DNA of 64,000 bases, taken from assembly GCA_947624255.1 (NCBI GenBank), contig CANQJO010000003.1:32852-96851 (forward strand), written 5' to 3'. A model generated the notes under the pieces. It was not told the DNA's origin. It made no database searches and saw only the letters and a program-made list of their open reading frames with translations. Every line of letters starts with the position of its first letter. Position 1 is the first letter of the stretch. This stretch comes from an uncultured Ruminococcus sp. (lineage in GTDB: Bacteria > Bacillota > Clostridia > Oscillospirales > Ruminococcaceae). Shown here piece by piece: positions 9,536-60,116 of the stretch. Both the position numbers and the translations under genes were made by a program.

Positions 9536-9560
9536 ATACTTATCAGCAGTCATAATACTG

Positions 9561-9706
9561 AAAAACCGTGAAAAATTTGCGGACAGACCATGCATTTTAC
9601 AAGGAAAAGGAACGAAGCCGTACCGATGTATGCCGAGTCACTTTGACGCAGTAAAAGGTGCGGGACCTTCGCAAAGGTTCCCGGTTTTTAGAGTGAGATC
9701 GGTATA
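9561..9706 (+). repeat. Dispersed structured repeat, long form (copy A)
   Basis: Shares acgaagccgtacc, agtcactttga, agtaaaaggtgc and ttttaga..tga..gatcggta with 24763-24926. Confidence 0.85.
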
Positions 9707-9745: not shown

Positions 9746-11077
9746 ATGATAGTGCAGCTAATACTGCAAATTATCCTTATAGCTCTTAACGCTGTCTTTG
9801 CCTGTGCAGAGATAGCAGTAATATCCATAAATGATACACACCTTGAAAAGCTCGCTGCGAGCGGCAATAAGCGAGCCGTCCGTCTGAAGCGTCTCACCGA
9901 GAGTCCCACACGCTTTCTTGCTACGATACAGGTAGCGGTGACGCTCTCCGGATTCATCGGCGCTGCTTTTGCAGCCGACAGCTTTGCCGAGATCCCGGTG
10001 AGAGCGATACTGAAAACGGGTATCTCTGTCAGTGAAAGCGTGCTGCGGTCGGTTTCGGTAGTGCTGGTAACTCTTGTGCTGTCATATTTCACACTTGTGT
10101 TCGGAGAACTCGTTCCCAAGCGTGTGGCAATGAAACACTCGGAAAAGCTGGCACTCGGCATGAGCGGCTTTATTGAACTCGTGTCAAAGATATCTGCTCC
10201 GCTTGTATGGCTGCTGAATATCTCGGCGAACGGCGTACTGCGCCTTATGGGAATTGATCCGGAGGCGGAGGAGGATACCGTCACTGAAGAGGAAATACTT
10301 ATGATGTCAGATGCAGGTGCTGAAAAGGGTACTATTGACGAGGACGAAAACCGTATCATAAAGAACGTCTTTGCATTTGACGATATGACTGCCGGTCAGA
10401 TATGCACTCACAGGACAGATGTCTCCGTACTCTGGAGCAATGACGATATCAGCGTATGGGAGGATACTATCCACCGGACACGCCATTCGATCTTTCCCGT
10501 GTGCGGTGAAAGCGTGGATAATATCGTGGGAGTGCTTAATGCTAAGGACTACTTCCGCCTGGATGACAAGAGCCGTGAGAATATAATGCAGAACGCCGTC
10601 ACCGAGCCTTATTATGTTCACGAGACGATGAAGGCTGACAGACTCTTCCAACAGATGAGGCAGAGCGGCGCAGCGCATTTCGCTGTAGTCGTTGATGAAT
10701 ACGGCGGAATGAGCGGCATTATCACCGTGACTGACCTTGCGGAGCAGCTCATAGGCGATTTTGCCGATGATGATGACGGCGATGAGCCGAGGTTTGAACA
10801 GATAGATGACAATAGCTGGATCGTTCCGGGAATGATGTCTCTGAGCCAGCTCAGCGATGAGCTTGATATCACTCTTCCGGCGGATAAGTACGACACTCTC
10901 GGAGGCTACGTGATCGCTTTGCTCGGAGAGATCCCAAAGGACGGCACTCAGGTAAGCCTTGAGACAGACGGACTCCACATTCTTGTCCGGGAAGTAAAGC
11001 ATCACCGGATAGAGGTCTGTACAGTGGAGAAAATAAATACCACCTCTGATAAAGATGACAATGCAGATCCGCAGTAA
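9746..11077 (+). CDS. HlyC/CorC family transporter (CNNM + CBS pair + CorC_HlyC)
   Basis: LNAVFACAEIAVIS, FGELVPKRVA, CBS motifs, VVDEYGGMSGIIT, DTLGGYV. Confidence 0.93.
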   Translation: MIVQLILQIILIALNAVFACAEIAVISINDTHLEKLAASGNKRAVRLKRLTESPTRFLATIQVAVTLSGFIGAAFAADSFAEIPVRAILKTGISVSESVLRSVSVVLVTLVLSYFTLVFGELVPKRVAMKHSEKLALGMSGFIELVSKISAPLVWLLNISANGVLRLMGIDPEAEEDTVTEEEILMMSDAGAEKGTIDEDENRIIKNVFAFDDMTAGQICTHRTDVSVLWSNDDISVWEDTIHRTRHSIFPVCGESVDNIVGVLNAKDYFRLDDKSRENIMQNAVTEPYYVHETMKADRLFQQMRQSGAAHFAVVVDEYGGMSGIITVTDLAEQLIGDFADDDDGDEPRFEQIDDNSWIVPGMMSLSQLSDELDITLPADKYDTLGGYVIALLGEIPKDGTQVSLETDGLHILVREVKHHRIEVCTVEKINTTSDKDDNADPQ

Positions 11078-19408: not shown

Positions 19409-21271
19409 TCATTCTATCACTGCTATGCCGTACAATACAAAGGTCGTTGACGGATCCTGCATATTTATAGACACGTTCAATGTGCCTGACTGCTCCTGAT
19501 AATATCCGACATCACCATCAAGTCCTCCCCATGTCCACGGAAGATCGCTGCTCACGGGGTTTGTTTCTCCATTCACTGTTACGTTGACAGTTCCCATTGA
19601 TGCATTGGAATTCGACTGAAACAGCAGCATTATTCCTTTTCCCTCTACAGTAAAGCTGAGCGGATCGTTTCCGTTTTTGCTGAAAGTGAAACCGTTTTGC
19701 GAATACGAGGAATTATTCGTTCCGGAGCTCCATGAGCCTTTCGAGAGGTTCTGCATCTCTGCGACTGTCAGCAGTCTTGCGGTAGAATACTCCGCTCCGA
19801 ATACCGTACTGTTCGTTACGGTGTATTCCTCCGATGTATTCTCGCTGCGCAGAGCCTGACGATAATAATATCCGATACAATCCGCAATGAGCTTATGACC
19901 TCCGTCACCGGGGTGGATATTATCGCCGCTGCCGTAATCGCTCCATTTCAGCGTACCTGCGTTGATAGCGTTCATTACGGCATCTTTTCCGCTTATCAGA
20001 GGAAGATCGTAATTTTCAGCGATCTTCGCCATCCAGCTCTGACATGAGCCGCCCGATTCGGTACAAAGAGTAATAAGCACTACTGCCGGTCCATTCTCCT
20101 GTGAAAGACACTTCTTCACCAAGGATTCATACGATTTTTGGAAACGTGTGCCGTCCTGATCGTTTACCGCAAATTCAATGAAAATGATATCCGCATTTTT
20201 GGCGAATACATCATTATCTACACGGAGATTTCCGACAACGGACGATGTTCCTGCCATACCTGCGTTGATATAGTTGACGTTTCCGCCCGTACCGAAAGTG
20301 TCACTGAAATAATTGCACGAAAGATTTGCATAGCAATTGGCGTGTGTGCTCGATGAACCGCCTGCTGTTATAGAGCCGCCGAGGTAAGCGATATTCACCT
20401 GTTCACCGCTTTGCGCCTTTGATATTTTATCACGTATCCTCTTTGTATTTCCCACACGATAGAGGCTATCCTTGTACATTTGCAGCCTCTCGGGCGAAAC
20501 GTCCTCCTGATAATTATCCCAGTCACCGGATACATTATTTTCCGGCGGATCTGCGATCTGCTTTCTCAGGCGAACAAGATCAAAAGCATCTATCACCTCA
20601 TTTTTATCCATATCAGCTCCGATCTCACATTCATCAGACCTTGTGAGAAGATAATCACTGAGAGTTTTGATATCATCGCCGTTTACTTTAAGATCACCGT
20701 TTGCATCGCCTGTTTTTATCACCGTGGGCGAACCCGTGACCTTTACAAGATCAATATAAAAATCCGTGAGAGATTCTGTTGTTTCGATGTAAATAGAAAG
20801 ATCGGACGCTCCCTCCGGAACAGTGTATGAATCATTGGAAAGAACCGTCCATTCGCCGTTCGGCGCTGTTTCAAGAGAGATAGCATCATAGGCTGTTGTA
20901 CCTGTGCTGTCGGTATATTGGAGAGAGAATTTCATTTCAACAGGCTCGCCGCTCTCCTGATAAACGGCAGCAGATATGTTGTATTTCTCTCCTGCTTTCA
21001 TAAAAGATGAGGCATCTCTCGAAGCGCCGTTCCATGTTGCTGTTCTTCCGCTTACAAAGAGACTGCATTCATCGGAATATGCCTTATCGGATGTCCAACC
21101 GACAGTCGAACCTCCCCTCGCAGTAAAAGAATCGTTTGTTGTCTCGAATTCTGCCGTAAGCAGATTTGCAGCCGACACATATGCAGGCCGCTGAACGGCA
21201 GGCGAGATCGTAAAGGTCAAAACTGCCGCTGATATTGCTGCGATCCCTGTTCTTTTTTTGTATTTCATCAT
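19409..21271 (-). CDS. Secreted CBM22-dockerin-SGNH esterase
   Basis: Signal peptide; CBM22-like EFETTNDSFTARG..SLFVSGRTATWNG; dockerin GDANGDLKVNGDD...ADMDKNEVIDAFDL; SGNH blocks LGGSIT, NAGMAGT, EFAVND, DNIHP. Confidence 0.85.
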   Translation of the reverse strand: MMKYKKRTGIAAISAAVLTFTISPAVQRPAYVSAANLLTAEFETTNDSFTARGGSTVGWTSDKAYSDECSLFVSGRTATWNGASRDASSFMKAGEKYNISAAVYQESGEPVEMKFSLQYTDSTGTTAYDAISLETAPNGEWTVLSNDSYTVPEGASDLSIYIETTESLTDFYIDLVKVTGSPTVIKTGDANGDLKVNGDDIKTLSDYLLTRSDECEIGADMDKNEVIDAFDLVRLRKQIADPPENNVSGDWDNYQEDVSPERLQMYKDSLYRVGNTKRIRDKISKAQSGEQVNIAYLGGSITAGGSSSTHANCYANLSCNYFSDTFGTGGNVNYINAGMAGTSSVVGNLRVDNDVFAKNADIIFIEFAVNDQDGTRFQKSYESLVKKCLSQENGPAVVLITLCTESGGSCQSWMAKIAENYDLPLISGKDAVMNAINAGTLKWSDYGSGDNIHPGDGGHKLIADCIGYYYRQALRSENTSEEYTVTNSTVFGAEYSTARLLTVAEMQNLSKGSWSSGTNNSSYSQNGFTFSKNGNDPLSFTVEGKGIMLLFQSNSNASMGTVNVTVNGETNPVSSDLPWTWGGLDGDVGYYQEQSGTLNVSINMQDPSTTFVLYGIAVIE

Positions 21272-21459
21272 ATTACTCCTTTCACGCAAAATTTTCCTTA
21301 TATACATCATACAAAATATTCACGCAATTGTCAAGAAGAAATTTCAAAGAGATCGGCTTGCACGAGCAAATTTAACAAAAAAATAATAAAATCAATATCT
21401 TAAAATATTAAAATATTATTAGAATATGCGTTTTGTCCACCAAATGTTCATTTTATCCC

Positions 21460-21489
21460 TTGACATGATTTTGCTTTTAATGATAGAAT
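21460..21489 (+). promoter_or_regulatory. Sigma-A promoter of GH43 gene
   Basis: TTGACA-18-TAGAAT with a TG extended -10. Confidence 0.55.
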
Positions 21490-21538
21490 GTTATAAACTG
21501 TAAGTGACTTAATATATTCTTCTTAAAGGAGGGGTTCT

Positions 21539-24484
21539 GTGAAAATCAAAAAATTTATCTCCGCTGTGTCAGCGGCGGCACTCACGATCACATCGGCATT
21601 TGCGGCAGCTCCCACTGTTCTGACAAACGCAGAAAATCCTATCGTGCAGACATCATTCACGCCCGATCCCGCTCCCGTTGTTTTCGGCGATGAGCTTTGG
21701 GTATTTACAGGCAGAGACCGCAATGCGGACAACGATTTCTACTATATGACCGGCTGGCAGGCGTTCTCTACCACCGATATGAAAAACTGGACAAATCACG
21801 GCTGCTTTCTTGAAGACGATGATTTTTCGTGGTGCAATGAGAACGATGCATGGGCATCACAGTGTATCGAGCGGAACGGAAAATACTACTTCTACTTCAC
21901 CACGACAAATAAAAGCGGCGGCGGACGGGCAGTCGGTGTCGCTGTGGCAGATTCTCCCGAAGGACCGTATAAAGATGTTCTCGGCAAGCCGCTTTGCGGT
22001 CCGAACTGGGATTACATTGATCCCACGGTCATTATCGACGATGACGGGCAGGCTTGGCTGATGTTCGGCAATCCCACCTGCTACTACGTTAAACTCAAAG
22101 ACGATATGATCACTCTTGACGGCGAGATAAAATCATTCGATATGACAACGCAGGCTTTCGGTGAGGGCAAGAACGGCAGTGCATACGGCGAAGGTCCGTG
22201 GATCACAAAACACGGCGATATGTACTATCTCGTTTATGCCGGATTTTACGGCTCGGACGGCGGAGAAAGCATCTGCTACTCCTATGGTCCATCTGTTACC
22301 GGTCCGTGGACGTTCGGCGGAAAGATCACACCCGAGAGCAACTGTTTTACCACTCACGGCGGAACAATAGACTATAAGGGACATTCCTATCTGTTCTATC
22401 ACAAAAACGGCTTGCCCGGCGGCGGAGCTTTCAAGAGAAGCGCAGCCGTAGAAGAATTTACGTACGATCCTGACGGCACTATCCCTATGATCGAACCAAC
22501 GGACAGCGGTCCGTCCCAGCTTGAGGCATTTGATCCCTACAAAAATGTCGAGGCTGAAACAGGAAGTTGGTTCTCCGGAGTTGAAGTCGAGCCTGCCGGC
22601 AACGGAACTCAGGCAGTCTCTATGATCAACAGCGGTGACTACATAAAGATCAGCGGAGTTGATTTCGGTGACGGCGCAGCAAAATTCACGGTAAGCGCTG
22701 CCTCAGCCACGAACGGCGGAACGATCGAACTCCACCTTGACAGCGAAAACGGTCCTATCGTAGGAACTGTCACGGTCGGCAGCACCGGCGGCTGGAAAAA
22801 CTGGGAGGAATTTTCAACATCGGTGAGCGGTGCATCAGACAAGCATGACCTTTTCATAAGATTTTCCGGCGATGACGGATACCTTATGAATGTTGACCGG
22901 TGGAAATTCGAGAAAAAAGGTTCATCATCGCTCCCCGATACAGATCCGCCCCTTTCCGGCGATGAGCTGCTCCGGGAAACCTTTGAGAGCGGTGCCGGCA
23001 GCTTTTCCGGAAGAGGAAGCGCCTCTGTTGCGGCATCAAGCTCGGAATATTACGAGGGAAGCCGTTCACTGTTTGTTTCGGGCAGAGATGCCGCATGGAA
23101 CGGTGCAATTACAGATCTGCCCGCATCATTCAAGGCAGGAGAGGCATATTCATTCAGCGTTAATGTAATGTGTCCCGCATCGGGCAAAAAGGATCTTTTC
23201 TATCTCACCATTTCATATACCGATACTGACGGCGAAACAAAATATGACAAGATCGCCCGTGGTGCGTGCATGGGCGGTAACTGGATACAGCTCTCTGATA
23301 CCTCTTATACGCTGCCTGCCGGTGCGACCGATATGCAGGTGTATGTTGAAACCGATTCGGGACACTCCGACTTCTATATTGATGATTTTGTGATCGCCTC
23401 CGAGGGTACGGAGATCGGCGGCGCAGGCTGTGCATATATGCTCACTCCCGGCGATGTTTCATGCAACGGATACATCAACGCACTTGACCTTGTTCATGCC
23501 AGAAAAGGCTTGATCAGCGATTCCTACCACTCAGACACCGCAAGGACAAATGCCGATGCCGACCGGAGCGGAACGGTCGAGGTGAACGATGTCGTTCTTA
23601 TTTCGGAATTTATAATGGGCAGGATCAAGGAATTCCCCGATAATTCGCCTGAACCGCCTGTTCCGGAATATGAGTACGATCCGGCGGCTTCATACAAGGA
23701 AGCACCCTCGAACTATTTCTCAATGAGTGACTTCAAGGGACAGCTAATCAACGAAACGTATACGGGCATCAACGGCACGAAAAAGCTAAATGTCTACCTG
23801 CCGCCCGATTACGATGAAAACAAGCAGTACAACGTCTTCTATCTTATGCACGGCGGCGGAGAAAATGAAAACGTTCTTGTAAACGATTCCGATAAATTCT
23901 ATGTTCACTGTATGATAGACCATATGATACAGAACGGAGAGATCGAGCCGATGATCGTTGTATTCCCCACATTCAACGGCTGTCCGGACGGCGCAGGCGA
24001 TGTATGGGACGAAATGAAACAAAGCATCGTTCCGTTCGTGGAGGGAAAATATTCGACCTATGCCGAGAATACAACTCCCGCCGGACTGGAGGCATCAAGA
24101 ATGCACCGTGCCTACGGCGGATTCTCAATGGGCGGCGGCTCAACGTGGAACGTACTCATCAATGATAATGATTACTTTGCATATTATATGCCGCTTTCAG
24201 GTCATTGCTGGGGCGGAGCTGCTCCCATACTCAACATTATGAATAATCATAAATACAAGGACAGCACTTACATTTTCGCAGCAACAGGTACGGAGGATAT
24301 TGCATATGGCAATATGTGCGATCTCATCAATGAGCTGAAAAAAGATCCGGCTATTAAATTTACATCGGATTTTTCAAAGGGTAATTTCTACTTCCTCGAA
24401 GCAGCCGGCAAAACACATTGGTGGGGCTTTGTGAAGCATTATGTGTATGTTGCACTGCCGTACTTCTTCCATGAAGAGGGATAA
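21539..24484 (+). CDS. Multimodular cellulosomal enzyme GH43-CBM6-CBM22-dockerin-CE1
   Basis: NPIVQTSFTPDPAP, WASQC, IDPTV, EGPW (GH43); VEAE..DFGDGA..TGGW (CBM6); TFESG..SLFVSGR (CBM22); GDVSCNGYINALDL/ADADRSGTVEVND (dockerin); VYLPPDY, LMHGGG, GFSMGG (CE1). Confidence 0.92.
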   Translation: MKIKKFISAVSAAALTITSAFAAAPTVLTNAENPIVQTSFTPDPAPVVFGDELWVFTGRDRNADNDFYYMTGWQAFSTTDMKNWTNHGCFLEDDDFSWCNENDAWASQCIERNGKYYFYFTTTNKSGGGRAVGVAVADSPEGPYKDVLGKPLCGPNWDYIDPTVIIDDDGQAWLMFGNPTCYYVKLKDDMITLDGEIKSFDMTTQAFGEGKNGSAYGEGPWITKHGDMYYLVYAGFYGSDGGESICYSYGPSVTGPWTFGGKITPESNCFTTHGGTIDYKGHSYLFYHKNGLPGGGAFKRSAAVEEFTYDPDGTIPMIEPTDSGPSQLEAFDPYKNVEAETGSWFSGVEVEPAGNGTQAVSMINSGDYIKISGVDFGDGAAKFTVSAASATNGGTIELHLDSENGPIVGTVTVGSTGGWKNWEEFSTSVSGASDKHDLFIRFSGDDGYLMNVDRWKFEKKGSSSLPDTDPPLSGDELLRETFESGAGSFSGRGSASVAASSSEYYEGSRSLFVSGRDAAWNGAITDLPASFKAGEAYSFSVNVMCPASGKKDLFYLTISYTDTDGETKYDKIARGACMGGNWIQLSDTSYTLPAGATDMQVYVETDSGHSDFYIDDFVIASEGTEIGGAGCAYMLTPGDVSCNGYINALDLVHARKGLISDSYHSDTARTNADADRSGTVEVNDVVLISEFIMGRIKEFPDNSPEPPVPEYEYDPAASYKEAPSNYFSMSDFKGQLINETYTGINGTKKLNVYLPPDYDENKQYNVFYLMHGGGENENVLVNDSDKFYVHCMIDHMIQNGEIEPMIVVFPTFNGCPDGAGDVWDEMKQSIVPFVEGKYSTYAENTTPAGLEASRMHRAYGGFSMGGGSTWNVLINDNDYFAYYMPLSGHCWGGAAPILNIMNNHKYKDSTYIFAATGTEDIAYGNMCDLINELKKDPAIKFTSDFSKGNFYFLEAAGKTHWWGFVKHYVYVALPYFFHEEG

Positions 24485-24592: not shown

Positions 24593-24621
24593 TTGACAAA
24601 TTCTCTTTTTTGCGGTACAAT
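24593..24621 (+). promoter_or_regulatory. Sigma-A promoter of tRNA-Leu
   Basis: TTGACA-17-TACAAT. Confidence 0.75.
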
Positions 24622-24648
24622 AAAAATGTTATTTGTGAACAAAATATT

Positions 24649-24686
24649 TTATAGTGAACGTCAAAAAAATTTGTCGTTTATTATAA
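24649..24686. repeat. Palindrome (copy 2) in the tRNA leader
   Basis: ttatagtgaacgtcaaa-aaaa-tttgtcgtttattataa; left part identical to 11169-11187. Confidence 0.8.
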
Positions 24687-24742
24687 TGTTTATGCTTGCT
24701 GATAATTGCCGCTGTGGTGGAATAGGCAGACACAAGGGACTT

Positions 24743-25145
24743 TGATGTTTGCACGCACAGCTTATACCGATTTCTTTCCGAAAGCCGTGCAGGATCTGCG
24801 AACAGACTGTGCCTGTTACAGGGAAAAGTGACGAAGCCGTACCGGGACGTATGTCAAGTCACTTTGATGAAGTAAAAGGTGCAGTATCTTCGTTACGTCG
24901 GATTTTAGAATGAAATCAGATCGGTACGTGCGTCTGCGGCAGATCCGCAGAGAGTGCCCGCAGAGAAATTTGCGGTGCAGAAGTCAGCTAAAACGGTGAA
25001 TGCGCAAACAGAACGCCGTGCTAACCCCATAAGGGTGAGTGTAGAGACTTTACACTGACTGCCTTAGTCCGAAAGGATATGGTAAAGACAAAGTCCGGAC
25101 TACAACATACGATCCCGTATGGCTATGGTGACATAGAGTAGTATG
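24743..25145 (+). ncRNA. Group I self-splicing intron (403 nt) between U34 and A35
   Basis: 5' exon ends in U, intron ends in G. P3 agtcag 24982-87/ctgact 25055-60; P4 acggtg/cgccgt; P6a accc/gggt; P7 gacttt 25046-51/aaagtc 25090-95 with R (GUAGAGACU) and S (AAGACAAAGUCC) elements; P8 with GAAA tetraloop; P9 hairpins. Confidence 0.92.
24763..24926 (+). repeat. Dispersed structured repeat, long form (copy B), inside the intron
   Basis: Bounded by taccgat...atcggta; core homologous to 9561-9706. Confidence 0.85.
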
Positions 25146-25221
25146 AAAATCCCTCGCCGGCGACGGCGTACCGGTTCAAGTCCGGTCAGCGGCACCATTA
25201 CATTGAAAGGAGTTTTTCACC

Positions 25222-25419
25222 ATGGATATCAAGGACAAACTGAGCGATATAACCGACAAGGTAAAAAATGATAAGGATTTCACAAAAAACCTCAAGGAAG
25301 ATCCGGTCAAAGCTGTTGAAAACGTAACCGGTATAGATCTTCCCGATGACAAGATCGACAAGGTAGTTGATACTGCTAAGGACAAGCTCGGCGATATTGC
25401 TGATAAGTTCAAAAAATAA
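25222..25419 (+). CDS. Small hypothetical protein (65 aa)
   Basis: RBS aaggag, amphipathic charged sequence, followed by a terminator. Confidence 0.75.
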   Translation: MDIKDKLSDITDKVKNDKDFTKNLKEDPVKAVENVTGIDLPDDKIDKVVDTAKDKLGDIADKFKK

Positions 25420-25424
25420 GTTCA

Positions 25425-25448
25425 AGGGGCAGAAAATTCTCTGCCCCT
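25425..25448. terminator. Bidirectional terminator
   Basis: aggggcaga/tctgcccct between convergent genes. Confidence 0.75.
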
Positions 25449-28900: not shown

Positions 28901-29821
28901 TCAATCATTTTCATAGAATATGATCCTTTTCACAGCGAATACAACGATACCCAGCGCAGCAAGGACTACTCCGAAGTATATCCACGCCATTGCCGAGGCA
29001 AGTCCGTAATTCACGTCCCTGCTTTGAAGTGTCAGTATACGGCGCATTGCGGTATTTGTCGGACTTGTGAATGAATCTATCACCGTAAATATAAGATTTG
29101 CAAGGACGAACGGGCTGACATACGGCAGTGTTATCTTCCAGAAAAAATCCCACCCCGATGCTCCCTCTATCATCGCAGCCTCTTTTGCGGCAAGGGGGAT
29201 ATTCTGCAAAGCCGCAAGAAACAGCAGTATCGGAATACCGCTGCTCCAGACGATGCTGAAAACATTATCAGCCACAGCCGAGATATAGGCAGTCATTTCT
29301 TCGCTGATGCCGTAAATTCCCAGAAACTGCATAAGCTCTCCCACAAGATCGGTGGAAAACATGGTAGAAAACTGCGAAGCTTCGGAGTTTCCGCTTGTCT
29401 GTAGGTCGCCGCTTATTATGCCGAATACAGGTCCTGTGGCGATTATCACCGGAAGAAAAAATATCGCTCTTGCAAGTGTCCGTCCGTGAAACTTATCATT
29501 CAGCAGAACGGCTATAAACAACGAGAATATGAGTATCAGCGGAGTTTTCCACGCTGTCTCAATGAGCATATCCCGGAGATCACGTGTAAACTCCGGATCT
29601 TTGAAAAGAGCATCAGAGTAATTCTGCAAGCCCTGCCATTTCATGGCAAGTCCGCCCGGTTGAATAATTACTTTGTTAAAGGAGTACCACAGTGATCTTC
29701 CGAGCGGTATCAGGAAAAAGACGATCGTTCCCACAAGCCACAGCCCGATAAATCCGTAGCCGTAAAGTTCCTTTCGCCTGCTGTAGGAGAGTCTGATGCG
29801 CTGTTTGTTTTTTTCATTCAT
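28901..29821 (-). CDS. Carbohydrate ABC transporter permease
   Basis: LAALQNIP..AKEAAMIEGASGWDFFWKITLP, YGLASAMAW. Confidence 0.93.
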   Translation of the reverse strand: MNEKNKQRIRLSYSRRKELYGYGFIGLWLVGTIVFFLIPLGRSLWYSFNKVIIQPGGLAMKWQGLQNYSDALFKDPEFTRDLRDMLIETAWKTPLILIFSLFIAVLLNDKFHGRTLARAIFFLPVIIATGPVFGIISGDLQTSGNSEASQFSTMFSTDLVGELMQFLGIYGISEEMTAYISAVADNVFSIVWSSGIPILLFLAALQNIPLAAKEAAMIEGASGWDFFWKITLPYVSPFVLANLIFTVIDSFTSPTNTAMRRILTLQSRDVNYGLASAMAWIYFGVVLAALGIVVFAVKRIIFYEND

Positions 29822-32631
29822 GAAGCATCTTCTCCCCCTTGAAAATAACTGTCTATGTCAATGAAGATCTCTCCCGCACTGACCGTACCGTTTTTCATAT
29901 CGGTGATGACCTTTGTGCCGTCGGAATATTCAGTGGTGATGATATCTCCCGAAACATCGTACTCCTCAATAGTGCAGGCGCCGATCTTTTCAAGGAGCGG
30001 ACGCAGCAGAGCATACTCCTCTCCGGCAGTGTCTGTCCGGCCGCTGCTTTCCGCATAAAAGAGCGTATCAAGCTCTGTATCTTTCAGAACGCTTGTCTCT
30101 TCGCAGATCATATCGTACCTTAGACAGCTTCCGGTCGCTGCCGCCATAAGCAGCATGGTACGGGAGTCGGCACTGCCGTTCACAGCCGTGGTGGAGTACG
30201 GCACAAGTCCGTGAACGACTATCTGATAAAAGGGGATATCTCTGTCGAAAATATCAAATCTGCTTGAGCTGAGCGGAACATTCTTTATATGGCTCACATA
30301 GGGCAGTGCATAGGCGTTTGCTCCGTCTGCGATAATTCCCCCCGGGAGAGTTTCGTCCAGCCGGCTATAGCTCTCGGTGAGCAGATCCATAGCATCGCTG
30401 CGTGAGGTCGTATGCCTGCCGTAGTCTCCGTAGAGGGAGGTCGTCAGCTTTGAGGCGGCAACGCCGTAAAGCCCCGATCCGGCATAGCTTTCGGCAATGC
30501 CGGAGGACACTTTTCCGAAATATTCGGGTGAAAGCAGAGAGAGATTTTTCCTAAATCCGTCGGGAATGCCGTATGCCCTGTCATAGCTGACGATGCGTGA
30601 ATAAGCTCCCGATATCCTCACCGCCGTATCGGTAAAGGAGTAGTAGCCGTTTCCTGAGCGGAAATCTCTGTTGTCCGATGCAGGATATAAGCTCCAGCCG
30701 TTGCCGCTCACATAGCTTTTCAATGAGGAGAATCCTTTTTTTCCGCCAAGAATATGCGCCGGAACAGCATCGGTATCAATTTTATTGCCGATGCCGTCAT
30801 TCGTCCAGTTTTCGTAAGATATGACCATATCCTCTGCGCCGCTGCCTTTCAGCCGTGAGAGTATCCCCTCCGCCTGTTCAAAGCTCGTCACGGACTGTTT
30901 CACCGTCATGGGTATGCCGAGTATTGACTTCTTTTTCTGCACGCCGCCGTACAGGTCGATATACAGCGGAGCAGTATTCTCATCAGTGCGGACGGTCATG
31001 CCCTTTTCCTCAATGAGATACCGTCTGTACCGCCGTGCGATGCCGGAGTAGTCCGCACTCCCCCCGGAAACGGGATAATAACGCATCTCGATATCGCCGG
31101 TCTTGATACCGCCGTTTTCAAATACCGTAAAGGCTTCATTGCCGTTTCCCGACATATAGTATGTGTCCGTTCCTCGCAGCACAAAGGTAAAATTGCAGAA
31201 ATTATATCGTGTTCCGGGATCTCCCGAAACCTGAACATTCAGCCGGGCGTTGGCATCTCCCCGAGCTGCGACCGCAAGCAGGGCGTTATTCTCTTTGACA
31301 ATACCATAGACCGGGAGGTATATCTGCTCGGTGACAGCTCCCCTTGACGTGGGAACAGCAGTTATATCACGTCCGTAGACAGGCTGAGAGTAGGAGGAGG
31401 CTTCCATAGACTTATTATTATTGAAATTGACGATCGCTCCGCAGCCGTCGGGAATGACAAAATATCCCTCCTCCTCATCAGAGGCAGCCCCGAAGCTCCC
31501 CATGATCGTTACTTCGGTGGCAATATTCGAGCTGTTTGTCTCGGTGATCGAATCGGCTTTCAGGAGTGCTTTCAGGCAGTCCTCCTCAAGAGTATATTCC
31601 ACGGGGATAGTAAATCCTGCATCATATGAATATTCCACACGAATTCCGTTCTCAATGTCAGTGACGGAGATATCACATTCATCGGAAAACGAGGCAAGAG
31701 GATTTGTATTGTTCCTCCTCTGCGGAACACCGTAATTCATAGTATTTGAGGATCTCATGCGCCGTACAAGAGCTTCATTTGCAGAGGTATCCTGTGAGGC
31801 ATCGGGAGGTGTTGACCACCAGATGTATCCTGTCTCCTTGTTTTCAAGTCCTATGACAGCATCTCTGTAGTCTGCGATCATTCTGTAGCTGCTGTTTTCG
31901 GCGCAGCATCGGAACACTCCGTAAAAGCGTGTCATATCCTCCGAGAGCTGTGCATACTCGTCCGCAGTTTCGCCGGTGTAGATCCTCATGCCGTTTTCTG
32001 TGCGTGAAAAGGTGAACTGCGCATCAGTGGACTTATTATCCTCCGTCATTATCATAAGCGTTTTGCCGTCATCTGTAAGGAACGCATTTTTGCTGTCGAG
32101 AGTGGATATCACCCGACAGACATTTTTTATCCTGCCGCTGTCGTCCGTTATGACAAGGAATCTTCCGCCTGTGCTGATGTAGCGTATTTCTCCGTCCCTG
32201 TCGGCCAATTTGTTGAACCGTGCTACCGCTCCGGAGCTGCTCAGAGCAGCGGCATCTCCTATCTCTTTAGCAGTCTTGATATCGGCTTCGGCGGCATTTA
32301 CTTCCTGCTGACGCTGACCGCTGATATCCTCATCTTTCTCCGGTTTTCCGCCGTGAGATGCCCATATCTCCTCCTCATAATTTTCATCTCTTATGTAGAA
32401 TTCTATCCCCTCTGCGCTTCCTGCAAAAGTGAGGAGTTTCTCCGCATCAGCCGGCTTAAAATCGGGAGTTTCCACCGCTTCACCACGCTTTTCTTCGGGA
32501 GAGTCTTCGCTGTCGGTATATACCTCTGCACCGCCCGAAACGCCTGACGGAGCATAGCGGAGATCTCCTCCGGAGGTAAATGCCGAAACAGCTGCGAGAA
32601 TTGCCGCAATATATTTTATTGTCCTTAGCAA
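29818..32631 (-). CDS. Large secreted protein, DUF5696-like
   Basis: Signal peptide; GYIWWSTP, GYFVIPDGCGA, LPVYGIV, FYQIVVHG motifs recalled from DUF5696 proteins of such ABC clusters. Confidence 0.7.
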   Translation of the reverse strand: MLRTIKYIAAILAAVSAFTSGGDLRYAPSGVSGGAEVYTDSEDSPEEKRGEAVETPDFKPADAEKLLTFAGSAEGIEFYIRDENYEEEIWASHGGKPEKDEDISGQRQQEVNAAEADIKTAKEIGDAAALSSSGAVARFNKLADRDGEIRYISTGGRFLVITDDSGRIKNVCRVISTLDSKNAFLTDDGKTLMIMTEDNKSTDAQFTFSRTENGMRIYTGETADEYAQLSEDMTRFYGVFRCCAENSSYRMIADYRDAVIGLENKETGYIWWSTPPDASQDTSANEALVRRMRSSNTMNYGVPQRRNNTNPLASFSDECDISVTDIENGIRVEYSYDAGFTIPVEYTLEEDCLKALLKADSITETNSSNIATEVTIMGSFGAASDEEEGYFVIPDGCGAIVNFNNNKSMEASSYSQPVYGRDITAVPTSRGAVTEQIYLPVYGIVKENNALLAVAARGDANARLNVQVSGDPGTRYNFCNFTFVLRGTDTYYMSGNGNEAFTVFENGGIKTGDIEMRYYPVSGGSADYSGIARRYRRYLIEEKGMTVRTDENTAPLYIDLYGGVQKKKSILGIPMTVKQSVTSFEQAEGILSRLKGSGAEDMVISYENWTNDGIGNKIDTDAVPAHILGGKKGFSSLKSYVSGNGWSLYPASDNRDFRSGNGYYSFTDTAVRISGAYSRIVSYDRAYGIPDGFRKNLSLLSPEYFGKVSSGIAESYAGSGLYGVAASKLTTSLYGDYGRHTTSRSDAMDLLTESYSRLDETLPGGIIADGANAYALPYVSHIKNVPLSSSRFDIFDRDIPFYQIVVHGLVPYSTTAVNGSADSRTMLLMAAATGSCLRYDMICEETSVLKDTELDTLFYAESSGRTDTAGEEYALLRPLLEKIGACTIEEYDVSGDIITTEYSDGTKVITDMKNGTVSAGEIFIDIDSYFQGGEDAS

Positions 32632-32647
32632 TGAGATACACCTCCCT

Positions 32648-32711
32648 TATACCGATCTCACTCTAAAATCCGAAAATCTTTGCGAAGATCCTGCACGGTC
32701 CTTATCAGTAT
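32648..32711 (-). repeat. Dispersed structured repeat, short form (copy C)
   Basis: Reverse complement reads atactga..accgtgcaggatcttcgcaaaga..ggattttagagtgagatcggtata. Confidence 0.85.
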
Positions 32712-59221: not shown

Positions 59222-59293
59222 TATACCGGTCTCATTCCGAAAACCGTGCAAGATCTTCGCAAAGACCCTCGTGTTTTAGAGCGAGATCGGTAT
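59222..59293 (+). repeat. Dispersed structured repeat, short form (copy D)
   Basis: tataccggtctcattccgaaaaccgtgcaagatcttcgcaaaga..gttttagagcgagatcggtat; 11-bp terminal inverted repeat. Confidence 0.85.
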
Positions 59294-59324
59294 TATCCCG
59301 AATGCGCAAAAGGAGATAACAGAA

Positions 59325-60116
59325 TTGATAAAAACAATAAACGGCATGAAAATAAACTACGAGCAAAAGGGCAGCGGAGAACTTGTTGTCCTCCTTCACG
59401 GCTGGGGGAGCAATATCAAGCTCTTTGCCAACCTTATCGACCTGCTCTCTGTGAAATATACCGTTATAGCTATGGATATGCCCGGATTTGGTGAAAGCGA
59501 TGAGCCTCCGTCGGCGTGGTGCGTTGACGACTACGTTGATTTTGTTGCGGATTTTCTCCGTGAGACCGCTGCTCCGAAAGAGGTGACACTGCTCGGTCAT
59601 TCGTTCGGAGGCAGAGTCATCATAAAACTCCACAGCAGGAAAGATCTGCCGTTTCGCATAGTAAAGACCATTCTTGTGGACAGCGCAGGTATCCTCCCAC
59701 CGAAATCAAATAAAAAAAGCCTGAGGACTCGCTATTACAAAATCGGAAAGGCTGTACTCTCTACCGGCATCGCAAGGAAGATCGCTCCCGATGCGCTTGA
59801 AAATTTCCGCAAAAAAATGGGAAGTGCCGACTATGCCGCAGCCTCTCCGCTTATGAGACAGGTGCTTGTCAAGGTGGTAAATGAAGATTTAGAGCCTCTT
59901 CTGCCGAATATAAAATGTCCCACGCTCCTTGTGTGGGGAGTCAATGACACGGCAACACCGCTTTCAGACGGTGAAAAAATGGAGAAGCTCATTCCCGATG
60001 CAGGTCTTGTAAAGCTTGAAAATGCGGGACATTATTCGTTTCTTGAACAACAGTATATATTCAACCGTGTCATGTGTTCCTTTATGAAGATAGATGAAAA
60101 GGAGATCACCCGATGA
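59325..60116 (+). CDS. Alpha/beta hydrolase
   Basis: LLHGWG, DMPGFG, GHSFGG nucleophile elbow, AGHYSF; TTG after aaggag. Confidence 0.92.
   Translation: MIKTINGMKINYEQKGSGELVVLLHGWGSNIKLFANLIDLLSVKYTVIAMDMPGFGESDEPPSAWCVDDYVDFVADFLRETAAPKEVTLLGHSFGGRVIIKLHSRKDLPFRIVKTILVDSAGILPPKSNKKSLRTRYYKIGKAVLSTGIARKIAPDALENFRKKMGSADYAAASPLMRQVLVKVVNEDLEPLLPNIKCPTLLVWGVNDTATPLSDGEKMEKLIPDAGLVKLENAGHYSFLEQQYIFNRVMCSFMKIDEKEITR

What the first reader, a model, noticed from the sequence alone, without database searches (positions are those of the whole stretch)
24708..25197. Group I intron at the anticodon of a clostridial tRNA-Leu(UAA)
Seen: two tRNA halves 403 nt apart rebuild a complete Leu tRNA (loop CUU^AAAA). 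The intervening RNA shows P3, P4, P6, P7, P8 and P9 pairings, R/S elements and a terminal G. Known: the U34/A35 site of tRNA-Leu(UAA) is the classic group I site in cyanobacteria and plastids, with sporadic proteobacterial cases. I do not know it as a well-described Firmicutes feature. Inference: splicing is needed to make this tRNA, and pipelines are likely to miss or mis-call the gene.
Basis: partly seen in the sequence, partly recalled or inferred. Interest (0 to 1): 0.8.

Follow-up and report, generated by a model that had tools for sequence, protein, structure and literature searches.

The report
tRNA-Leu group I intron, nested repeat
A leucine tRNA gene of a rabbit-gut Ruminococcus-like bacterium is split by a self-splicing (group I) intron of a known, widespread type, which standard tools miss and which has picked up a copy of a small palindromic repeat found elsewhere in the genome.

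Summary
Exons 24708-24742 and 25146-25197 join into a canonical 87-nt tRNA-Leu(UAA), and the 403 nt between them start after U34 and end in G.

The intervening RNA is an IC3-type group I intron of the classical "Leu.3Ug" class. Rfam RF00028 gives no hit, even at E<=10. A covariance model built from 21 related tRNA-Leu introns matches 24949-25145 full length (112 bits). Three Ruminococcus MAG species carry the same intron, about 240 nt long, in the identical tRNA. Across these four sequences all 50 modelled core pairs are kept, 8 of them through compensatory changes.

- About 169 nt (24759-24927) are a nested copy of a palindromic dispersed repeat. It has three other copies in the window and many in the source metagenome. 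It sits in the terminal loop of a peripheral hairpin between the 5' splice site and the internal guide sequence.
- This clade has no P5 helix, which probably explains the Rfam blind spot.

The novelty claim is overstated. The same intron family turns up in many gut Firmicutes MAGs and phage contigs, and a 2020 preprint catalogued 5,292 tRNA group I introns.

Splicing itself is inferred, not shown. ARAGORN misses the gene by default and, with its intron option, mis-calls it as Phe(GAA).

The parts
24593..24621 (+). Promoter-like site TTGACA-17-TACAAT, about 87 nt upstream of the tRNA
   Evidence: Consensus scan, 11 of 12 matches. Function is inferred.
24708..24742 (+). 5' exon of tRNA-Leu(UAA): acceptor stem, D arm, 5' side of the anticodon stem, C32 U33 U34
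   Evidence: Identical in L135, L137 and L173.
24743..25145 (+). Group I intron (403 nt) including the nested repeat
24753..24933 (+). L1 hairpin A: stem ACGCAC (24753-24758) / GUGCGU (24928-24933). Its terminal loop now holds the repeat.
   Evidence: Alignment with relatives. By my reading of those alignments, window and L135 have ACGCAC/GUGCGU while L137 has ACACGC/GCGUGU. The stem closes the fold.
24759..24927 (+). Nested copy (c1, long form) of a palindromic dispersed repeat. It replaces the 8-10-nt loop seen in relatives. Inverted-repeat ends UAUACCGAU...AUCGGUA at 24763-24926.
   Evidence: Absent from L135, L137 and L173. blastn and nhmmer find other copies in the window. Contig depth in the source metagenome is 25-90x against 5-8x in the flanks.
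24855..24869 (+). Look-alike of the 5' splice junction inside the repeat: CAAGUCACUUUGAUG against the real CAAGGGACUU|UGAUG. It is buried in the stem AAAGUGAC/GUCACUUU.
   Evidence: Significance unexplained.
24934..24950 (+). L1 hairpin B: CUGCGG-CAGAU-CCGCAG
   Evidence: By my reading of the alignments, the stem is kept through paired changes: L135 CUGUGU/ACACAG, L173 CUACGG/CCGUAG.
24952..24955 (+). Internal guide sequence GAGU. It pairs with exon ACUU (24739-24742), with U24742.G24952 as the wobble pair at the 5' splice site (P1).
   Evidence: Aligned to the invariant GAG of the family.
24955..24979 (+). P2 hairpin: UGC+CCGCA / UGCGG+GCA
   Evidence: CM alignment. Helix 1 has 4 pairs with changes on both sides.
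24983..24987 (+). P3 5' strand GUCAG, pairing with CUGAC at 25055-25059
   Evidence: window-specific A-U where relatives have G-C. Strong covariation across the family.
24993..25019 (+). P4 (ACGGUG / CGCCGU) closed by a conserved 15-nt A-rich loop in place of P5
25026..25035 (+). P6 hairpin CCC-AUAA-GGG
25046..25050 (+). P7 5' strand GACUU, pairing with AAGUC at 25091-25095 (pseudoknot with P3; site of the guanosine pocket by homology)
   Evidence: helix 5 (invariant). Lies in the 67-nt blastn match to the RF00028-positive phage intron.
25055..25059 (+). P3 3' strand CUGAC
25060..25084 (+). P8 hairpin: UGCC...UCC-GAAA-GGA...GGUA
25091..25095 (+). P7 3' strand AAGUC, preceded by J8/7 AAAGACA
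25099..25142 (+). P9 domain: closing stem ACUAC/GUAGU, hairpin CAUACG-AUCC-CGUAUG, hairpin CUAUG-GUGA-CAUAG
25145..25145 (+). Terminal (omega) G of the intron
   Evidence: The model match ends here.
25146..25197 (+). 3' exon of tRNA-Leu(UAA): A35 A36, 3' side of the anticodon stem, long variable arm, T arm, acceptor stem, CCA
9553..9706 (+). Repeat copy c2 (long form), intergenic, about 40 nt upstream of the ORF starting at 9746
32648..32711 (-). Repeat copy c4 (short form), just upstream of the RBS and start of ORF 32631..29818
59222..59294 (+). Repeat copy c3 (short form, near-perfect palindrome), about 30 nt upstream of the ORF starting at 59325

Best explanation
The single tRNA-Leu(UAA) gene in this window is interrupted between U34 and A35 by an ORF-less, IC3-type group I intron.

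Proposed mechanism, inferred from how the family works:
- The pre-tRNA is transcribed from the promoter-like site at 24593-24621.
- The exon end ACUU pairs with the guide GAGU (24952-24955), giving the U.G wobble at the 5' splice site.
- The P3-P9 core (24983-25142) folds.
- An external guanosine cleaves after U24742. G25145 then takes its place in the P7 pocket.
- The exons are ligated into the anticodon loop CUUAAAA.

The intron belongs to a Ruminococcus-specific subclade, about 240 nt long in three other species. This subclade has two extra hairpins in the P1 loop and no P5 helix.

In this genome only, a palindromic dispersed repeat of MITE/REP type, about 165 nt, inserted at the DNA level into the terminal loop of the first of those hairpins. 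There it folds back on itself as an extension of that hairpin. It therefore most likely leaves the ribozyme working.
For: Shown:
- Exact exon halves and a clean spliced tRNA-Leu(UAA).
- A 67-nt core match to a phage tRNA-Leu intron at the same site. That phage intron itself scores 56.6 bits on RF00028, against a gathering score of 50.
- A family of at least 74 tRNA-Leu(UAA) introns with the same boundaries.
- RNAalifold on 21 family members recovers P2, P3, P4, P5, P6, P8 and P9, with 35 of 55 pairs showing compensatory change.
- A CM built without the window or its three closest relatives matches 24949-25145 full length: 112 bits, E 2e-32, the only hit in 64 kb, ending at the omega G.
- The four-member clade keeps 198 of 198 pair cells. 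Eight pairs are compensatory, against 26-40% paired in the slid controls. One P3 pair is A-U only in the window, where the three relatives have G-C.
- The extra 169 nt are absent from the three relatives. They match three other loci in the window.
- The repeat is covered 25-90x in the source metagenome, against 5-8x for the flanks and the intron core.
- The repeat plus hairpin A folds as one closed rod.
- Logan contigs from separately deposited runs span the whole intron with 0 differences (pieces 2 and 10).

Inferred: promoter use, self-splicing, and that the insert is tolerated.
Against: - RF00028 gives nothing, even at E<=10 and even on the core alone.
- The family used for the CM was collected with a 25-nt pattern taken from the window's own core, so the 112 bits are not independent.
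- With those 25 bases masked, a sequence-only profile finds nothing. The IGS-P6 half alone gives no nhmmer hit and only 18 bits with the CM.
- The clade lacks the P5 helix that normally helps dock P1.
- No P10 pairing is apparent.
- There is no RNA evidence of splicing for this locus. RNA contigs of the relative L137 show only unspliced junctions.
- Whether the genome has a second, intact tRNA-Leu(UAA) is unknown.
Confidence: 0.8

Rival explanations
1. The gene is a dead or dying tRNA pseudogene. The repeat insertion next to P1 blocked splicing, for example by misfolding or through the 5'-splice-site look-alike competing for the guide sequence. Another tRNA-Leu(UAA) gene elsewhere does the work.
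For: - The insert sits between the 5' splice site and the guide sequence, 209 nt apart instead of about 50 in relatives.
- The look-alike CACUU|UGAUG could pair with GAGUG.
- There is no RNA evidence of splicing.
Against: - The exons are intact and identical or compensated relative to the relatives.
- All 50 core pairs are intact, including one pair that is A-U only in the window.
- There is a strong promoter-like site.
- The insert is in a terminal loop and closes on itself, and the look-alike is buried in a stem.
- The phage relatives L035, L044 and L053 carry an ORF that starts 13-21 nt into the intron, in the same L1 region; Pfam calls it HNH_3, above threshold only for the L044/L053 product.
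Confidence: 0.12
2. The insert is a functional RNA module rather than selfish DNA. It would be a protein- or ligand-binding or processing element that also sits in three 5' leaders, and here it would gate P1 formation and so make tRNA-Leu(UAA) maturation conditional. This would be analogous to the c-di-GMP-II/group I allosteric ribozyme.
For: - All three other copies lie 20-45 nt upstream of a start codon, on the same strand as the gene.
- One stem pair changes on both sides between c1 and c3, by my reading of the sequences.
- The splice-site look-alike.
Against: - The downstream genes are unrelated: the Pfam scan of the window's ORFs gives DUF5696 for one; my reading of the N-terminal sequences of the other two is a DUF21/CNNM-like membrane protein and an alpha/beta hydrolase.
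- Copy c2 has lost stem pairs (my reading), and c4 folds no better than shuffles (z -0.18).
- No Rfam family matches.
- Three related species splice-site-for-splice-site lack it.
- Only four copies were seen, so the orientation bias is not significant.
Confidence: 0.05
3. The extra sequence is the eroded remnant of a homing-endonuclease gene once carried in L1.
For: Related phage introns carry an ORF in L1 that Pfam calls HNH_3, above threshold only for the L044/L053 product. The insert contains a 54-codon ORF.
Against: tblastn of the HNH proteins against the intron gives nothing (best E 1.9). The same sequence recurs at three intergenic loci and many metagenome contigs.
Confidence: 0.02
4. 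Assembly artefact: a repeat was wrongly joined into the intron during metagenome assembly.
For: The element is multi-copy in the sample.
Against: Logan contigs of two runs (484 nt and 461 nt) span both insert junctions with 0 differences, at the same depth as the flanks.
Confidence: 0.01

Closest known systems
Cyanobacterial/plastid tRNA-Leu(UAA) group I intron (Anabaena/Nostoc type; 'Leu.3Ug' in Williams 2020, bioRxiv 10.1101/2020.01.27.920355)
   Same: - Same host tRNA and same site (CUU|...G|AAAA).
- Same IC3-type core order: P1, P2, P3, P4, P6, P7, P3', P8, P7', P9.
- No ORF, U-1 and omega G present.
   Different: - The host is a gut Firmicute (Ruminococcus-like).
- The P1 loop holds two extra hairpins.
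- There is no P5 helix.
- It scores below every Rfam threshold.
- It carries a nested dispersed repeat.
Azoarcus tRNA-Ile(CAU) IC3 intron (Aol6.Ile2.5Ug in the Williams seed alignment)
   Same: Very similar core strings: AAAUUCGG.GAAA, CCGAGCCAAG, GGUGUAGAGACU, AAGG.AUAGUCCAG.
   Different: Different tRNA and loop position. Azoarcus is compact (about 205 nt), has P5, and has ACUA/UAGU in P7 where this family has ACUU/AAGU.
tRNA-Leu-TAA and tRNA-Arg-TCT group I introns of Beggiatoa and Thiomargarita, and the MITE-like hairpin shared with P9 of the Thiomargarita dsrA intron (PMC4853749)
   Same: Non-cyanobacterial tRNA-Leu(UAA) introns that annotation pipelines report as missing tRNAs. A group I intron contains a hairpin that is also dispersed at more than 100 places in the genome.
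   Different: Different phylum. There the repeat is in P9 of a protein-gene intron. Here it is in L1 of a tRNA intron and is demonstrably absent from sister species.
IStrons (CdISt1 and relatives) of Clostridia
   Same: A group I ribozyme physically combined with a mobile DNA element in a Firmicute.
   Different: IStrons carry an IS200/IS605-type module at the 3' end and move as a unit into protein genes. Here a small palindromic repeat is a secondary passenger inside a resident tRNA intron.
c-di-GMP-II riboswitch plus group I allosteric ribozyme of Clostridioides difficile (Lee et al. 2010, as cited in PMC3984707)
   Same: An extra structured RNA lies next to P1 of a clostridial group I ribozyme. 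An alternative 5'-splice-site-like sequence is present.
   Different: No known aptamer is detected. The extra piece is a multi-copy repeat missing from relatives. There is no evidence of regulation.

Membership tests
Group I intron (general definition; Rfam RF00028) | U at the last exon position forming a U.G wobble with an internal guide sequence (P1) | tested here: met
   U24742 with G24952; ACUU/GAGU. The guide aligns with the invariant GAG of the family.
Group I intron (general definition; Rfam RF00028) | Terminal G (omega G) immediately before the 3' exon | tested here: met
   G25145. The family CM match ends there.
Group I intron (general definition; Rfam RF00028) | Conserved core helices P3, P4, P6, P7, P8 in the canonical order, with the P3/P7 pseudoknot | tested here: met
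   Full-length CM alignment. 50 pairs are 100% paired in 4 sequences, 8 of them compensatory, against 26-40% in the slid controls. Family covariation. P7 itself is invariant, so it is uninformative.
Group I intron (general definition; Rfam RF00028) | P5 helix with J4/5 and J5/4 forming the P1 docking site | tested here: not met
   In the window, L135, L137 and L173, P4 is closed by a 15-nt loop AAKGCRCAAACAGAA. No helix is possible in L137 or L173. A-rich flanks remain.
Group I intron (general definition; Rfam RF00028) | Score at or above the Rfam gathering threshold | tested here: not met
   No RF00028 hit at gathering or at E<=10, whether on the whole region or on the core alone. The positive control L001 scores 56.6 bits. 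Only 5 of 15 family loci pass.
Group I intron (general definition; Rfam RF00028) | Guanosine-dependent self-splicing | not testable with these tools
   No RNA runs hold this locus. RNA contigs of the relative L137 show the unspliced junctions only.
IC3 bacterial tRNA introns, class Leu.3Ug | Insertion between positions 34 and 35 of tRNA-Leu(UAA) | tested here: met
   CUU|...G|AAAA. An intron-less homologue in the same metagenome joins 24742 to 25146 exactly.
IC3 bacterial tRNA introns, class Leu.3Ug | Match to a covariance model built from members of the class | tested here: met
   Model R1 from 21 Leu(UAA) introns gives 112.1 bits, E 1.7e-32, model positions 1-222. The members were selected with a 25-nt motif taken from the window, so this is partly circular.
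IC3 bacterial tRNA introns, class Leu.3Ug | Subgroup-defining tertiary contacts of IC3 | not tested
   The subgroup assignment rests on similarity to introns that Williams 2020 reports as IC3 and to Azoarcus in his seed alignment.
MITE/REP-like palindromic dispersed repeat (for 24759-24927) | Several dispersed copies in the same genome | tested here: met
   Four copies in 64 kb. 44-46 contigs laid per run, and a 5-10-fold excess depth over the insert.
MITE/REP-like palindromic dispersed repeat (for 24759-24927) | Terminal inverted repeats or overall palindrome | tested here: met
   AUACCGRU...AUCGGUAU in all four copies. c3 folds as one hairpin, z -3.7.
MITE/REP-like palindromic dispersed repeat (for 24759-24927) | Presence/absence difference at an orthologous site | tested here: met
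   L135, L137 and L173 have an 8-10-nt loop where the window has 169 nt.
MITE/REP-like palindromic dispersed repeat (for 24759-24927) | Target-site duplication | tested here: inconclusive
   TA flanks both ends of all four copies. TA is self-complementary, so it may simply be part of the inverted repeat.
MITE/REP-like palindromic dispersed repeat (for 24759-24927) | A cognate transposase or RAYT elsewhere in the genome | not tested
   Only the window is available. No full-length element with these ends was seen in it.
Riboswitch-coupled (allosteric) group I ribozyme | A recognised ligand-binding aptamer adjoining the ribozyme | tested here: not met
   No Rfam family at E<=10 over 24600-25300 or over copy c3.

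The most novel reading that the evidence does not exclude
The palindromic repeat is an RNA-level module rather than junk. Elsewhere it sits directly in front of ribosome-binding sites. Here it sits between the 5' splice site and the guide sequence and carries a look-alike of the splice junction. Its folding, or a factor that binds or cleaves it, could then decide whether P1 forms.
Probability: 0.06. Interest if true: 0.7.

Novelty: new member of a known kind. Interest (0 to 1): 0.35.

Why it matters
**Practical value.** An entire Ruminococcus subclade of tRNA-Leu(UAA) genes is invisible to Rfam RF00028 and to default ARAGORN. With the intron option, ARAGORN calls it Phe(GAA). These genomes will therefore appear to lack the tRNA that reads UUA/UUG. 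That distorts tRNA-complement and MAG-quality statistics. A family-specific model fixes this.

**Biological value, which is modest.**
- The case is a dated natural experiment. Three species have the empty site, and one has a 169-nt palindromic repeat dropped into the P1 loop of what may be an essential ribozyme.
- It also shows a P5-less IC3 core.
- Both could be used to test how much peripheral load and core reduction a group I ribozyme tolerates.

It does not open a new category. tRNA group I introns outside cyanobacteria, including in many phyla, are already catalogued.

Tried and rejected
- **Rfam cmscan.** I ran it on the whole window (gathering), on 24600-25300, on the core alone, and on repeat copy c3, the last three at E<=10. 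There was no relevant hit. I rejected this as evidence against a group I intron, because bona fide relatives also fall below threshold.
- **Homing-endonuclease remnant in the insert.** tblastn with the HNH ORFs of related phage introns found nothing.
- **The repeat outside this sample.** Two JGI metagenome pattern scans found nothing. blastn against plasmids found nothing. The blastn of the whole tRNA-plus-intron stretch against phages matched only the exon and the core.
- **Synteny with the three Ruminococcus relatives.** tblastn of five neighbouring proteins found none.
- **Direct RNA evidence.** No RNA run holds the window locus; word share is 0.10 in rumen runs. Rumen metatranscriptome contigs cover the L137 intron and both junctions, but show no species-specific spliced form.
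- **Independence checks on the family model.** A sequence-only profile loses the hit once the 25 selection bases are masked and gives none for the 5' half. The CM on the 5' half alone gives 18 bits.
- **My first hand model of P1.** I had extended P1 into GGG/CCC, but those C's belong to P2 in the family model, so I dropped it.
- **MAFFT alignment A2.** It misplaced the insertion. I used the insert-deleted alignment A3 instead.
- **A full-length IS with the same ends in the window.** None was found.
Full report
**1. The observation**

A 35-nt 5' tRNA half lies at 24708-24742 and ends in the anticodon-stem strand AGGGA plus CUU. A 52-nt 3' half lies at 25146-25197. It begins AAAA-UCCCU and carries a long variable arm, a T arm, the complementary acceptor strand and CCA. 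The gap is 403 nt.

- ARAGORN in default mode reports no tRNA anywhere in the 64 kb.
- With its intron option it reports one tRNA at 24708-24742/25146-25197 with a 403-nt intron. It places the cut one base to the left and so calls Phe(GAA).
- Three things fix the cut at CUU|...G|AAAA: the class II variable arm, the U before the intron and the G at its end. The joined exons are then called tRNA-Leu(UAA), 87 nt.

**2. Is it a group I intron?**

Rfam says nothing. There is no hit at gathering thresholds in the window. RF00028 gives no hit at E<=10 over 24600-25300, or over the putative core alone.

A sensitive blastn against phage genomes matched 67 nt of the intron (25039-25105) to a 735-kb uncultured phage. 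That locus (L001) is a tRNA-Leu(UAA) split at the same CUU|...G|AAAA site by a 205-nt intron. RF00028 recognises it at 56.6 bits, with a gathering score of 50.

A pattern from the shared core (GTAGAGACTT...GTAAAGNNAAAGTCC) then found two sets of loci:
- 83 viral contigs.

ARAGORN with the intron option maps 149 of these into anticodon loops. The breakdown is 74 Leu(UAA), 34 Arg(UCU) and 30 Thr(UGU), plus a few Asn, Lys and others.

RNAalifold on 21 compact Leu(UAA) introns recovers P2, P3, P4, P5, P6, P8 and the P9 domain. Of 55 predicted pairs, 35 show compensatory change. I built a covariance model from these 21 sequences, excluding the window and its three closest relatives.
- It matches the window once, at 24949-25145, over the full model: 112.1 bits, E 1.7e-32. 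The match ends exactly at the terminal G.
- It also matches the three relatives, at 119-125 bits.

*Limits of that test.* The family was collected with 25 bases taken from the window's own core, so the score is partly circular.
- With those bases masked, a sequence-only profile finds nothing.
- The IGS-to-P6 half alone gives no nhmmer hit and only 18 bits with the CM.

Four things do not depend on the motif:
- The blastn link to an RF00028-positive intron at the same site.
- The exact boundaries, with U.G at the 5' site and the omega G.
- The canonical order of helices.
- The pair counts in section 3.

**3. The immediate relatives**

Three MAGs labelled Ruminococcus carry the same tRNA: L135, L137 (rumen RUG12685) and L173 (UBA3855). 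Their 5' exon is identical to the window's. In L135 and L137 the variable arm differs at two positions, which by my reading change both sides of one base pair. Each has an intron of 239-242 nt that aligns end to end with the window's, starting UGAUGUUUG and ending GUAGUAUG.

On the four-sequence alignment with the insert removed, 50 modelled pairs give these counts:
- 198 of 198 cells are standard pairs.
- 8 pairs have changes on both sides.
- The slid controls give 26-40% paired.
- One P3 pair is A-U only in the window, where the three relatives have G-C.

This is what is expected of a ribozyme still under selection.

The clade has two peculiarities.
- Between the 5' splice site and the guide sequence lie two hairpins. 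By my reading, both are kept through paired changes: hairpin A is ACGCAC/GUGCGU in the window and ACACGC/GCGUGU in L137, and hairpin B is CUGCGG/CCGCAG in the window and CUGUGU/ACACAG in L135.
- P4 is closed directly by a conserved 15-nt A-rich loop, with no P5 helix.

The missing P5 and the long P1 loop plausibly explain why RF00028 fails. It also fails on L135, L137 and L173, and passes only 5 of 15 family loci tested.

**4. The extra 169 nt**

Relative to the three relatives, the window has 24759-24927 in place of the 8-10-nt loop of hairpin A. This piece is not intron-specific.
- blastn and nhmmer find three more copies in the window, at about 9553-9706 (+), 32711-32648 (-) and 59222-59294 (+).
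- All copies end in the inverted repeat AUACCGRU...AUCGGUAU.
- The short form (c3, c4; 64-73 nt) is one imperfect palindrome; c3 folds with z = -3.7.
- The long form (c1, c2) has a rod of about 100 nt added.

In the rabbit-gut runs that hold this locus, depth differs sharply between regions.
- The flanks and the intron core are covered 5-8x.
- The insert is covered 25-90x by many other contigs at 80-95% identity, with 44-46 contigs laid per run.
- Two contigs span the entire intron with no differences, so the insertion is not an assembly artefact.

The repeat has no Rfam match. It is absent from the plasmid and phage collections and from JGI metagenomes.

The other three copies are intergenic. 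Each lies 20-45 nt upstream of the next start codon, on the same strand. The genes are functionally unrelated. Copy c2 has lost stem pairs (my reading), and c4 folds no better than shuffles.

The best reading is a lineage-specific MITE/REP-like palindromic repeat that transposed into the AU-rich loop. A TA lies at both ends, compatible with a TA target duplication but not proof of one. With hairpin A, the insert folds into one closed rod. At the RNA level it is therefore an extension of a peripheral hairpin.

There is no similarity to the HNH endonucleases that related phage introns carry at the same L1 position.

**5. How it most likely works**

*Shown:* the parts and their conservation.

*Inferred from the established group I mechanism:*
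- Transcription starts at the promoter-like site TTGACA-17-TACAAT at 24593-24621. It possibly continues through the 65-codon ORF to the terminator-like hairpin at 25425-25448.
- P1 forms between ACUU (24739-24742) and GAGU (24952-24955), with the U.G wobble.
- Guanosine attacks after U24742.
- G25145 docks in P7 (GACUU 25046-25050 / AAGUC 25091-25095).
- The exons ligate to give the loop CUUAAAA.

RNA contigs from rumen metatranscriptomes cover the L137 intron and both exon-intron junctions. The relatives' locus therefore appears in RNA libraries, though this could be transcript or DNA carry-over. No contig documents the spliced form.

**6. An unexplained detail**

The insert contains CAAGUCACUUUGAUG (24855-24869). 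This is 13 of 15 identical to the real junction CAAGGGACUU|UGAUG, and it could pair with the guide sequence. Most of it is a family feature; copy c2 has GUCACUUUGACG. In the predicted fold it is sequestered in a stem. I treat it as coincidence or a possible cryptic site, with no evidence either way.

**7. Comparison with what is known**

The U34/A35 tRNA-Leu(UAA) intron is the classical bacterial and plastid group I site. Williams (bioRxiv 10.1101/2020.01.27.920355) surveyed 80,413 genomes.
- He found 5,292 group I-interrupted tRNA genes in 21 classes, tabulated by phylum. The table is an image and could not be read here.
- He reported the four classical classes as IC3.
- He built a dedicated CM because the Rfam seed contains no bacterial sequence.

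Beggiatoa and Thiomargarita tRNA-Leu-TAA and Arg-TCT introns were noted as 'missing tRNAs'. A Thiomargarita dsrA intron shares a MITE-like hairpin with more than 100 genomic sites (PMC4853749).

In my incomplete genome scan, at least 10 Firmicutes species carry the Leu(UAA) intron, about 30 the Thr(UGU) intron, and others Asn or Lys introns. Full-text searches found no paper on Ruminococcus or Firmicutes tRNA group I introns specifically.

The kind is therefore known and broadly catalogued. This clade and this nested repeat are, as far as I could see, undescribed.

**8. Verdict**

- It is a new member of a known kind, with three variant features: the L1 three-way junction, the missing P5 and the nested palindromic repeat.
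- Interest is modest. There is a real annotation blind spot and a neat natural experiment on ribozyme tolerance, but no new mechanism.

Noticed in passing
L004-L086 (IMG/VR viral contigs); e.g. L001 496-700, L044, L053, L035: Dozens of phage contigs carry group I introns inside tRNA genes: Arg(UCU) about 200 nt, Leu(UAA) 205 or 650-700 nt, plus Asn, Lys and Thr. Three (L035, L044, L053) hold an ORF starting 13-21 nt after the 5' splice site; Pfam calls it HNH_3, above threshold only for the L044/L053 product. The 2014 review PMC3984707 stated that all phage group I introns then known lie in protein genes.
   Followed up: partly
window 9553-9706 (+), 32711-32648 (-), 59222-59294 (+): Three further copies of the palindromic repeat. 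Each is intergenic and 20-45 nt upstream of the next start codon on the same strand (my reading: a DUF21/CNNM-like protein and an alpha/beta hydrolase; Pfam: DUF5696). There is no Rfam family and no match in plasmids, phages or JGI metagenomes. It may be a lineage-specific REP/MITE-like element, or possibly a leader element.
   Followed up: partly
L087, L088, L101, L103, L112, L124, L128, L133 and about 20 more genome loci: About 30 Clostridia/Bacilli species-level MAGs have an intron of about 225-245 nt (two of about 620-660 nt) in tRNA-Thr(UGU) after position 36 (UUGU|...G|AAUC). The core belongs to the same family.
   Followed up: no
L089, L090, L093, L094, L100, L122, L123, L132, L142, L145 and others: Many tRNA-Leu(UAA) introns of Gammaproteobacteria and Bacteroidota are 680-750 nt long. 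The viral counterparts of that size mostly showed no forward ORF of 60 aa or more, so the extra roughly 480 nt may be reverse-strand genes or non-coding insertions.
   Followed up: no
window 24593-25448: The tRNA appears to share a transcription unit with a 65-codon Lys/Asp-rich ORF (25222-25419, good RBS, no Pfam hit). A promoter-like site precedes the tRNA and the first terminator-like hairpin follows the ORF.
   Followed up: partly
window 24855-24869: The nested repeat contains a 13/15 look-alike of the exon/intron junction (CAAGUCACUUUGAUG). It could pair with the guide sequence GAGUG. It is predicted to be buried in a stem.
   Followed up: partly
L137 337-645 in rumen metatranscriptome runs X21, X22, X24, X29: RNA-library contigs at 99% identity or more cover the Ruminococcus RUG12685 intron and span both exon-intron junctions. 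This fits an unspliced precursor or DNA carry-over. No species-specific spliced contig was seen.
   Followed up: partly
window 19409-24484: Cellulosome-type genes lie next to the tRNA: a CBM4_9-dockerin-GDSL esterase and a GH43-CBM6-CBM4_9-dockerin-esterase. This fits a fibre-degrading Ruminococcus-like host.
   Followed up: no
L126 (contig binned as Klebsiella pneumoniae MAG): A 702-nt tRNA-Leu(UAA) intron of the gammaproteobacterial type sits on an 11.7-kb contig labelled Klebsiella pneumoniae. The contig may be mis-binned.
   Followed up: no
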